From NCBI RefSeq assembly GCF_009914755.1, contig NC_060934.1: a stretch of 64,000 bases of DNA. One strand, written 5' to 3'. The notes beneath the pieces were generated by a model that saw only the letters and a program-made list of their open reading frames with translations, did no database searches and was not told where the DNA came from. Numbering within the stretch: position 1 is the stretch's first letter; each line of letters starts with the position of its first letter. Shown here one piece after another: positions 3,831 through 35,720 of the stretch. Position numbers and translations under genes: made by a program. The stretch comes from the human T2T-CHM13v2.0 reference genome, Homo sapiens.

Positions 3831-5590
3831 AGAGAATGAGACTCAGGCCCCTTGCTCCTTTGCACTCCATGCTTAACCTCTCACCAAACTTCCTCCTTAG
3901 AGGCCTATCTACCCTCATGCAAATTAACTCATACAAACAGATACCGAGGAGGCCCACTACTAACCCGTAAGTGCCTTTGCCTTTGTGCTATTTGGAACTG
4001 TTTGATCTATACAGAAAAATTTGTCCCAGATACAGTCCATACTTGGCTTGGTGAGGTAGGGGTGGGTGGGAGGAAAGAAAGGTGGGGAGAGAGAACAAGG
4101 CACAGCGGCCAACACTCGCTCTGCCCAAGCAGATGCTGAACCCCAAGTTCATCCTGTCACTCTGAAGGGATGGTGTCCACACCAGAATTGGCCTAGGGCT
4201 GGATGTGCAGTAGAACTCAAGAAAGGCTGCCTGCCTTGGTCTTTGGAATTCCTCCTACTGCTCCCAGTTAGAAGGATGAGTTAGAAGAAAGAAGAGACCG
4301 TCAATCAAGTTGCTGGGTTTCGTAAACTGGCCCCACTTCCCAGGAGGATTTATCCGTGAGCCAGAGGCACCTCATTTCTCACTGCACCCTTTGGCCTGGC
4401 TCCAGCCACACCCCCACCCGCAAATAAGTCCTTTTCCTTCCTAGAGCAGGAGCCAGAGAATGAGTCAGTACCTCATTCTCTTCATTCTTTCATCACTGGT
4501 CAGGCCTCACCCTTCCCTCGGCCATCCCCTCCTCTGGGCAACCATCTGGATCATGTGTGGGCAAGGCTGTTCCCATACAGCCAGCTTGGAGGGTCCTCTG
4601 TGTGAGACAGGAGTGGGCAGGGCTGACCTCTCAGCTCCTGGGGACTGGAGAGAGAGCTGGGGCCTCCAGGGATGGGCCGCAACTACTGGAGTCTCTCCCA
4701 GCCCCTAAAGAAGGGTATTTCCTGGGGCCCTGTCTTCCTCCTCGGGCATTAAGTTTATTTCTGTGTCTGTCCTAGCAAAGAGGAATGAAAACTCCTTTAG
4801 GGAGTCCCCGCCATGCCCCAGACCCCACCACGAACTCTGAATTCTCGTGGCAATCCTCTATGTGGCGACCATCAGCCACACTGGAATGGAGGGACAAGGC
4901 TGTCGGGAGGAGGCATTTCTCACGCCTGTGCCGTGAACGTGCTACCTCTGCATGCTCAAGCCCATGCTGCGCCACTCACAAGGGGCTGTAGCATTCTGGG
5001 CCAGCGCCCTTCTCTCTCTGCCTCCTCGCCTACAGCAAGCTTTCTTCAGGCCTGCGGCTGGTGGGCCCCAAGCCAAGAGTGGATTCTTTCATACTCTCTG
5101 GTCTAAATCAAGCTGCATCAGGTGGCACTCCCGGTGACCCTCCTGCCTTATTTGGAAGAAGAGGAGGAAGCCAGAAAAGAAACCATCCAGGCACCATGGG
5201 CCCTTCTTATGGGTCACCCCACAGATGGCATCATTCTCCAGAGAGTGGGGAATATGAGCTCCGAGAGGCCCTGAGCAAGGTGTCAAAGGAAGAGAATAAA
5301 ATGAAGGAGCTGCCTTATAGGGCCCTAGAGGAGGACAAATATTTGCAAGTGGTAGTCATTTTCTCCCTGCAATTAAAGGAATTCTCCACTTTAAAGCAAA
5401 TGAAAATTAAAGGGAATGTGGGAGCCAGAGGGAGCCCCTGGGAATGTTACGGGGGGAGGGTAGTCTGTGAGGAGGGGTCTACTGGACCTGTTCAGTCAGA
5501 GCCCCGTCTGGAGCAAAGGTTGACCTCAGGCTCTGTTCTGGGTCTCCACAGTATTAAATCACCAAAGGGAGAGCTTCAGAAGCCCCAGAT

Positions 5591-33438: not shown

Positions 33439-34039
33439 TCACCAGCCTCGCTCCAGCAGACCTGCTGTTGGGTGGAAGCATAACCAAAAACAATGACTGA
33501 TGCCAGAATTTCAGGCTCACGCTTGACCTGTGGAGAAAAGGTTTTTGAGGTGGACTATGGAGGGGGACATTGGAACCTAAAGTTGCTCACTCGATTTGTA
33601 GATAGAAGGGGTGAATGTGGCTATGTATGGGGACACATATGCCAGGCACTGTTAGGCTCTTTACAGATGTGATTTCATTTACCTTCACAAGGTGGGGCAT
33701 TGTTCTCCCCACTTTATGGATAAGGAGATAGAGGCTCAGAGAGGTGACTTGAGTTGTCCAAGGTCATACAGCAAACAAGTGGCAGAGCTGGGCTTTGGAC
33801 CAGGCACTTTGGCTCCAAAGGGTTTGCCTCCACTACCACCTCACTTGGGATGAAGGCCTGAACTAGAAGCTGATTTGTGTGCATCAGACAGCACTCTGAA
33901 CTGGGCCTCCGCTACCCGCAGAACTCTCACTGAAGCTCTGCAAAGCAAAAGAACATGGCTCTCTAGGCCCCTTTCCCGGTGAACCTGCGGCCAGGGCTTG
34001 GGAAACAGACACTTGTTAGTAATTAACGGTGGCTGAACA

Positions 34040-34337
34040 GGCCGGGCGCGGTGGCTCACGCCTGTAATCCCAGCACTTTCGGAGACTGAGATGGGCGGAT
34101 CACGAGGTCAGGAGATCGAGACCATCCTGGCTAACACGGTGAAACCCTGTCTCTACTAAAAATACAAAAAATTAGCCGGGCGTGTTGGCGGGCGCCTGTA
34201 GTCCCAGCTACTCGGGAGACTGAGGCAGGAGAATGGTGTGAACCGGAAGGTGGAGCTTGCAGTGAGCTGAGATCGCGCCACTGCACTCCAGCCTGGATGA
34301 CACAGTGAGACTTTGTCTCAAAAAGAAAAAAAAAAAA
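34040..34337 (+). mobile_element. AluY flanked by ~93-bp direct repeats
   Basis: Full AluY (GAGATCGAGACCATCCTGGCTAACACGG). Repeats at 33947-34039 and 34334-34427. Confidence 0.95.
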
Positions 34338-34589
34338 GAACATGACTCTCTAGGCCCCTTCTCCCGTTGAACCTGCTGCCAGGGCTTGGGAAACAGACAC
34401 ATGTGAGTAATTAATGGTGGCTGAACAAAGAAAAGTGGCCAAAGTGGCCTGGGTGAGCCAGGCTGGGCCCGATCCACCTAGAAAAGCTTCCCTGAGGAGG
34501 AAAAAAAGCATCTCAGTCAGTAGTTCACCAGGGTTTCATGTTTTCATTCATTCAGGATCTCCAAGGTCAGTTTCCTTCCCAATTCCTGG

Positions 34590-35720
<1,131 letters not shown>

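What the first reader, a model, noticed from the sequence alone, without database searches (positions are those of the whole stretch)
33947..34427. AluY flanked by a ~93-bp direct repeat: a giant target-site duplication
Seen: 33947-34039 (AAAAGAACATGGCTCTCTAGGCCCC...GGTGGCTGAACA) ends exactly at the Alu 5' end. A copy begins exactly in the Alu A-tail (34334-34427) with about 7 differences. Established: Alu TSDs are normally about 7-20 bp and begin at an A-rich L1-endonuclease site, as this one does (GC|AAAA). Inference: second-strand cleavage or priming occurred ~93 bp from the first nick, so retrotransposition duplicated unique host DNA. The divergence between the two copies dates the insertion.
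Basis: partly seen in the sequence, partly recalled or inferred. Interest (0 to 1): 0.7.

Follow-up and report, generated by a model that had tools for sequence, protein, structure and literature searches.

The report
Alu with an oversized target duplication
A full-length Alu on human chromosome 10 sits between two 93-base copies of otherwise unique DNA, about six times the usual duplication and likely made when it inserted; 3 of 126 other Alus checked show similar oversized repeats, so these may be commoner than published catalogues suggest.

Summary
Observation confirmed. A full-length AluY-type element (34040-34319, tail to 34333) is flanked by a 93/94-bp direct repeat with 6 substitutions and 1 indel; a genome search found it only here. 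The repeat starts at an endonuclease-type site (TTTT/G) and ends exactly at Alu base 1. Copy divergence (5 non-CpG changes; 4.4 expected from the Alu's own decay) fits one shared age. Best reading: a large target-site duplication (TSD) tied to the insertion. This is a known outcome for L1 in cultured and tumour cells and for HERV-K, but I found no report for full-length germline Alus (published ranges 7-22 bp, 0 of 416 longer). New clue: the repeat's last 5 bases equal bases 5-9, where a normal 9-bp TSD would end (chance 1-3%, seen post hoc). That favours a normal stagger, host extension on an intact template and microhomology joining over a simple distal nick. In a small control, 3 of 126 other full-length Alus (2.4%, CI 0.5-6.8%) had 42-, 46- and ~80-100-bp repeats of similar anatomy. 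No primate empty site could be examined.

The parts
33947..34039 (+). 5' copy of the 93-bp duplicated target; starts AAAA, ends at Alu base 1
33946..33947 (-). inferred first-strand L1 endonuclease nick, bottom strand 5'-TTCTTTT/GC
   Evidence: TTTT/g appears among L1 cleavage sites in PMC5223499 Tables 1, 3 and 4
33951..33955 (+). GAACA at +5..+9, where a normal 9-bp TSD would end (also 34338-34342 in the 3' copy)
34035..34039 (+). GAACA at the end of the repeat, the 5' junction microhomology (also 34423-34427)
34040..34319 (+). full-length AluY-type element body; 6 private non-CpG substitutions and 1 deletion against 29 relatives; 17 CpGs left
34320..34333 (+). A-tail (A5 G A8) running into the 3' copy
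34334..34427 (+). 3' copy of the duplicated target (94 bp)
34427..34435 (+). A-rich, endonuclease-compatible stretch at the distal end of the repeat (possible second bottom-strand nick; chance about 3%)

Best explanation
The two 93-base copies flanking this full-length Alu are likely one target site duplicated during the insertion, likely by a normal short stagger whose free left end was extended 84 bases by a host polymerase and then joined to the Alu copy at the shared GAACA. Shown in sequence: unique DNA, A-rich start, flush end at Alu base 1, GAACA at +5..+9 and +89..+93, and divergence compatible with the Alu's age. Inferred steps: (1) L1 ORF2p nicked the bottom strand at TTTT/G (33946/33947) and reverse-transcribed the whole Alu RNA. 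(2) The top strand was cut at about +9 and the cDNA began copying onto that overhang. (3) The ends came apart and the left 3' end was extended on an uninterrupted template, most simply the sister chromatid. (4) The cDNA end, now complementary to GAACA, captured the extended end at +89..+93, and fill-in fixed a 93-bp duplication. The broader claim, a duplication made at insertion by any route, I put at about 0.75; this specific route at 0.42.
For: Both ends of the repeat coincide with the two ends of the insertion. Copy-to-copy non-CpG changes are 5 in 87 sites, against 4.4 expected from the Alu's 6 private changes in 235 sites (p=1.0; 6.7 expected if three lineage-shared changes are counted too, p=0.79). 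A microhomology of 5 or more at a 7-20-bp TSD end occurs at 1.2% of local positions (3 of 247, the observed one included) and 3.0-3.4% of pooled positions, 1.9% with this prefix fixed. Two of three independent control cases show it too: 5 nt at +12 and 4 nt at +12; P=0.022 for at least 2 of 3 with 4 nt or more. Extension of the reciprocal end by break-induced replication is the published proposal for L1 'large TSDs', and the same paper argues that the second nick has a fixed short spacing (10.1101/2024.12.14.628481, passages).
Against: The microhomology was noticed post hoc. If matches to the Alu 5' end are also allowed, the chance for this locus rises to 5-7%. One of three control cases (L036) has none. 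The other two have only 3-nt matches in their 3' copies (L015 by script; L042 read), and both contain hairpins (z -7.1 and -2.3) that offer another cause. De novo Alus show no long TSDs (0 of 51 in sperm, 0 of 45 in HeLa), so an at-insertion route has not been seen for Alu. Divergence cannot separate insertion time from the following few million years (CI 0.27-4.4).
Confidence: 0.42

Rival explanations
1. Distal second nick. The top strand was cut, or a nick was translated, to +93; the 93 bp were unwound and filled in on both sides.
For: De novo L1 inserts with TSDs of 40, 47 and 54 bp and up to kilobases occur in repair-deficient cells, and the authors propose an unrelated distal nick (PMC5223499). 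It gives exactly this anatomy. Control case L036 has no microhomology.
Against: It does not predict the in-register GAACA (chance 1-3%). All of those L1 inserts were 5'-truncated, whereas this Alu is full-length. No hairpin in the 93-mer shortens the effective distance (z -1.0, +0.6, -0.1).
Confidence: 0.26
2. Later template switch. The Alu inserted with an ordinary 9-bp TSD; while it was still polymorphic, replication or recombination switched from the empty homologue to the filled allele at GAACA and added 84 bp to the 5' flank.
For: It predicts the in-register GAACA. It would explain 3 of 126 long repeats among mostly old Alus against 0 of 416 in new or polymorphic sets (Fisher p=0.012).
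Against: It needs a second rare event on 5 bp of homology exactly at the junction. The 3 of 126 versus 0 of 416 gap may be ascertainment: one survey capped TSDs at 30 bp by design, and I did not check the detection limits of the three sets.
Confidence: 0.17
3. Two endonuclease nicks on the same strand of sister chromatids. The cDNA primed at +1 was joined to the end left by a second bottom-strand nick at the A-rich site at +93.
For: An A-rich endonuclease-compatible site lies within 1 nt of the distal end (chance 3.3%). cDNA capture of a downstream break on the sister is the published model for L1-bridged tandem duplications in tumours (PMC7058536, passages).
Against: The two control cases with a defined distal end (L042, L015) have no such site there. 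It leaves the GAACA match unexplained.
Confidence: 0.08
4. The Alu landed at the junction of a tandem duplication that already existed.
For: A slippage duplication would explain GAACA at both ends of an 84-bp unit. The wide age interval allows an older duplication.
Against: It needs an exact hit on the junction with a TSD of 1 bp (93-bp unit) or 5 bp at a non-canonical nick (84-bp unit). The shortest TSD among 416 published Alus with a TSD was 7 bp. In the 84-bp version the AAAA match to the tail is a coincidence.
Confidence: 0.05

Closest known systems
Canonical Alu TPRT insertion
   Same: Full-length body, A-tail, endonuclease-type first nick, repeat flush with the 5' end
   Different: TSD 93 bp against 7-22 bp (320 polymorphic Alus, PMC4607524), 8-18 bp (51 sperm, PMC12633430) and 7-18 bp (45 HeLa, PMC11260458); passages read
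Large TSDs of de novo L1 inserts (PMC5223499; HeLa studies it cites)
   Same: Long duplication beginning at an ORF2p site with a poly(A) junction; sizes of 40-54 bp and above 200 bp listed
   Different: Engineered, 5'-truncated L1 in cultured, mostly NER-deficient cells; here an old germline, full-length Alu mobilised in trans
L1-associated tandem duplications in clones and tumours (10.1101/2024.12.14.628481; PMC7058536)
   Same: Element bridges the junction of a tandem duplication; proposed extension of the reciprocal end or capture of a sister-chromatid break
   Different: 1-10 kb to megabases, somatic, L1; no in-register short-TSD microhomology was described in the passages I saw
HERV-K (HML-2) sites with 111- and 250-bp TSDs (PMC5488345)
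   Same: Germline human insertions with TSDs of this size, confirmed against single-copy empty alleles
   Different: Integrase chemistry, not target-primed reverse transcription
Repair-mediated duplications (PMC2671141)
   Same: Local DNA copied into a break, often with microhomology, attributed to synthesis-dependent repair
   Different: Their proximal class lacked poly(A) tracts (0 of 39) and was not defined by a newly inserted element at the junction

Membership tests
AluY-type SINE | Dimeric 7SL-derived body of about 282 bp with A-tail | tested here: met
   two SRP-like arms 34041-34155 and 34175-34321; 39 other full-length genomic matches at 92-95%
AluY-type SINE | Subfamily diagnostic bases against a curated consensus | tested here: inconclusive
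   No curated consensus was available. The element carries some but not all of the changes shared by young copies among the 29 relatives. The labels AluY and Yk-like are recalled.
L1-mediated TPRT insertion | First nick at an ORF2p site (TTTT/A, TTTT/G variant) | tested here: met
   5'-TTCTTTT/GC; variant listed
L1-mediated TPRT insertion | 3' poly(A) tail joined to the target | tested here: met
   34320-34333
L1-mediated TPRT insertion (canonical) | TSD of about 7-22 bp | tested here: not met
   93/94 bp
Large TSD (true target-site duplication) | Repeat begins at the nick and ends at the element's 5' end | tested here: met
Large TSD (true target-site duplication) | Duplicated DNA otherwise single-copy | tested here: met
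   2 places in the genome; the search gives lower bounds
Large TSD (true target-site duplication) | Same age as the element | tested here: inconclusive
   compatible (ratio 0.6-1.1) but the CIs span 0.14-4.4
Large TSD (true target-site duplication) | One copy at the empty orthologous or allelic site | not testable with these tools
   no relatives held for this genome; no paralogue of the site found
Hairpin-shortened target (loop-out) | Stable stem within the duplicated DNA | tested here: not met
   z -1.02, +0.64, -0.13 for the copies

The most novel reading that the evidence does not exclude
Alus with 40-100-bp target duplications are an overlooked class making up on the order of 1-5% of older full-length Alus, hence thousands of loci. 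Many end at a microhomology in register with a normal 9-12-bp stagger. They would record a germline step in which a normal insertion intermediate falls apart and is rebuilt by host synthesis, and would give thousands of twin-dated fossils for testing second-strand models.
Probability: 0.3. Interest if true: 0.7.

Novelty: new variant of a known kind. Interest (0 to 1): 0.45.

Why it matters
How the second strand is cut and the 5' end joined is the least settled step of L1/Alu insertion. Large TSDs are treated as products of cultured or tumour cells and of truncated L1s; one human survey collected only 5-30-bp TSDs and called for study of longer ones (PMC2912911). If a few per cent of old full-length Alus carry them, one reference genome already holds enough cases to test the rival mechanisms by computation. 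Retrotransposition would then have duplicated more unique DNA than counted, and long flanking repeats could allow clean Alu excision that mimics empty sites in phylogenetic use (inference). This single locus lies in an intron of an uncharacterised lncRNA (hub annotation) and shows no sign of function.

Tried and rejected
Chance similarity: rejected. Minisatellite or segmental duplication at the locus: none found. A paralogous empty site: none found for the window; for control L042 three paralogues exist, but all carry both copies at the same spacing. Hairpin loop-out for this 93-mer: not supported. Excess transversions (4 of 6): not significant, P=0.10. Microhomology between the Alu 5' end and the target: none. 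A structured RNA: all 19 Rfam hits were below gathering score and were SRP or miRNA models, almost all on Alu sequence. A 5'-truncated element: rejected, the Alu starts at base 1. Rows of 28 nt or more dropped from the control count as low-complexity, weak or Alu-versus-Alu: L029 (76 nt, GA-rich), window 47934 (40), L015 2796 (31), L028 (28), L036 6562 (40), L039 2956 (38), L039 4614 (29). Seven Alus too near a locus edge were not scored. Two papers sought by PMC id were not held. PMC6191304, PMC4245944, PMC11195612, PMC5402677 and the LoMA preprint gave no long-TSD Alu data in the passages seen.

Full report
Observation. The sequence shows a full-length Alu at 34040-34319 with a tail A5-G-A12, a 93-bp copy ending at 34039 and a 94-bp copy starting at 34334 inside the tail. 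The copies align with 87 identities, 6 substitutions and one 1-bp indel, and the match does not extend past either end. The longest perfect run is 23 bp. Whole-genome searches with the 93-mer, the left flank and the right flank each returned only these two places (lower bounds by the tool's own warning). No tandem array lies here.

The element. A genome search returned 39 other full-length matches at 92-95%; I held 29 of them as loci. Against their majority the Alu has 20 differences. Four are states shared with 8-13 relatives (a lineage split, not decay), nine sit in CpG contexts, six are non-CpG substitutions found in at most 1 of 29 relatives, and one is a deletion. It carries some but not all of the changes that mark the young copies among the hits, so it looks like an early member of a side lineage of AluY; the names are recalled, and no curated consensus was available.

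Age. Six changes in 235 non-CpG sites predict 4.4 between two copies of 87 sites, and 5 are seen. Counting three lineage-shared changes as well predicts 6.7. The age ratio is 0.6-1.1 with 95% limits from 0.14 to 4.4. A shared origin fits, a very recent duplication does not, and finer dating is impossible. With a recalled rate of about 0.15% per million years the Alu would be roughly 17 million years old, with wide error; PMC2671141 (passage) places most AluY at 30-18 million years.

Junctions. The repeat starts at bottom-strand 5'-TTCTTTT/GC, a variant listed among L1 cleavage sites. The Alu 5' end has no extra bases and no microhomology with the target. The last five bases of the repeat equal bases +5..+9, so the junction reads exactly as it would after an ordinary 9-bp TSD. 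Chance for 5 or more matching bases at any end from +7 to +20 is 1.2% locally, 3.0% across the window and 3.4% in the larger pool; 1.9% with this prefix fixed; and 5-7% if matches into the Alu are also allowed. I noticed this after looking, so it is a clue, not proof. An A-rich endonuclease-compatible stretch begins within 1 nt of the distal end (chance 3.3%). The 93-mer forms no unusual hairpin.

Control. I scanned all other full-length Alus in the window, the 29 loci and eight 10-kb stretches from Alu-rich chromosomes: 71 + 22 + 33 = 126 scored, 7 unscored at edges. Most called repeats were 8-21 bp. Three had complex-sequence repeats of 40 bp or more that begin in the tail: L015 (46/48 bp), L042 (42 bp, 3 mismatches) and L036 (78-bp core at 68 identities, 10 mismatches and 2 gaps, plus an A-rich start, with 11 unmatched bases before the Alu). 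L015 and L036 exceeded all 1000 shuffles; L042 was not shuffled. That is 2.4% (95% CI 0.5-6.8%). Seven other long rows were dropped as low-complexity, weak or Alu-versus-Alu (listed under Tried and rejected). All three are older Alus (77-84% to a young probe); none of the 29 young relatives had a complex-sequence long repeat. L015 and L042 show 5- and 4-nt matches at +12 in the 5' copy (P=0.022 for at least 2 of 3) but only 3 nt in the 3' copy, and both contain hairpins (z -2.3, -7.1). L036 shows neither. More than one route probably exists. The sample is small and not random, and none of the three has an empty-site check.

Literature (passages unless stated). Alu TSDs were 7-22 bp in 320 polymorphic loci (PMC4607524), 8-18 bp in 51 sperm insertions (PMC12633430) and 7-18 bp in 45 HeLa insertions (PMC11260458): 0 of 416 long, upper limit 0.9%, Fisher p=0.012 against my control. 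PMC2912911 restricted itself to 5-30 bp and asked for study of longer TSDs; the LoMA preprint capped its plot at 30 bp. Large TSDs are established for L1: under 10% of HeLa events, most events in NER-deficient cells, with a distal-nick model (PMC5223499, passages and the first part of section 17). [quoted passage not shown] PMC7058536 gives the sister-chromatid model. PMC5488345 documents 111- and 250-bp TSDs for HERV-K. Nine full-text searches on the topic gave no report of this locus or catalogue of long-TSD Alus; I saw most hits only as listings. The library lacks most subscription papers, I read no supplements (one search is a listing only), and per-locus tables there or in dbRIP may already hold such cases.

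Mechanism. Shown: the anatomy. From established knowledge: target-primed reverse transcription by L1 ORF2p from the TTTT/G nick. Inferred: everything at the 5' junction. I favour a normal stagger of about 9 bp, extension of the left end on an intact template, and capture at GAACA (0.42) over a distal nick (0.26), a later switch from the empty homologue (0.17), two same-strand nicks on sisters (0.08) and a pre-existing duplication (0.05). The last needs a 1- or 5-bp TSD exactly at the junction.

Verdict. Real, and well outside published Alu ranges, but a variant of a known outcome of L1 machinery, with no sign of function. Its value is as a pointer to a possibly common, uncatalogued class that is easy to test. 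Interest 0.45.

Noticed in passing
L042 minus strand: 5' copy 1166-1125, Alu 1124-841, 3' copy 826-785 (G000:C7, about 76.001 Mb): Older Alu with a 42-bp flanking repeat (3 mismatches) from a TTTT/AT site. The repeat is a 14-bp-stem hairpin (z -7.1) leaving 10 unpaired bases, the length of a normal TSD, and the target after it begins GGC like the Alu. Present with both copies in three segmental-duplication paralogues.
   Followed up: partly
L036 4770-4847 and 5172-5251, Alu 4859-5149 (G000:C19, about 13.005 Mb): Older Alu placed behind the A-tail of another Alu, flanked by a 78-bp core repeat at 85% identity plus A-rich start, with 11 unmatched bases at the 5' junction; no hairpin or microhomology.
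   Followed up: partly
L015 1109-1154 and 1452-1499, Alu 1155-1437 (G000:C12, about 1.668 Mb): Older Alu with a 46/48-bp AT-rich flanking repeat containing a 10-bp stem; a younger Alu later inserted at the end of the 3' copy, and a partial third unit follows it.
   Followed up: partly
window 34040-34319: The Alu shares some but not all of the changes that mark a young lineage among its closest genomic matches, so it may be an early intermediate of that lineage.
   Followed up: partly
window 35277-35563: Neighbouring Alu with a 21-bp perfect flanking repeat and a short internal tandem duplication in its right arm.
   Followed up: no
window 33640-33815: Stretch that reads like an old MIR element just upstream of the repeat; recognised from recall, not tested.
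   Followed up: no
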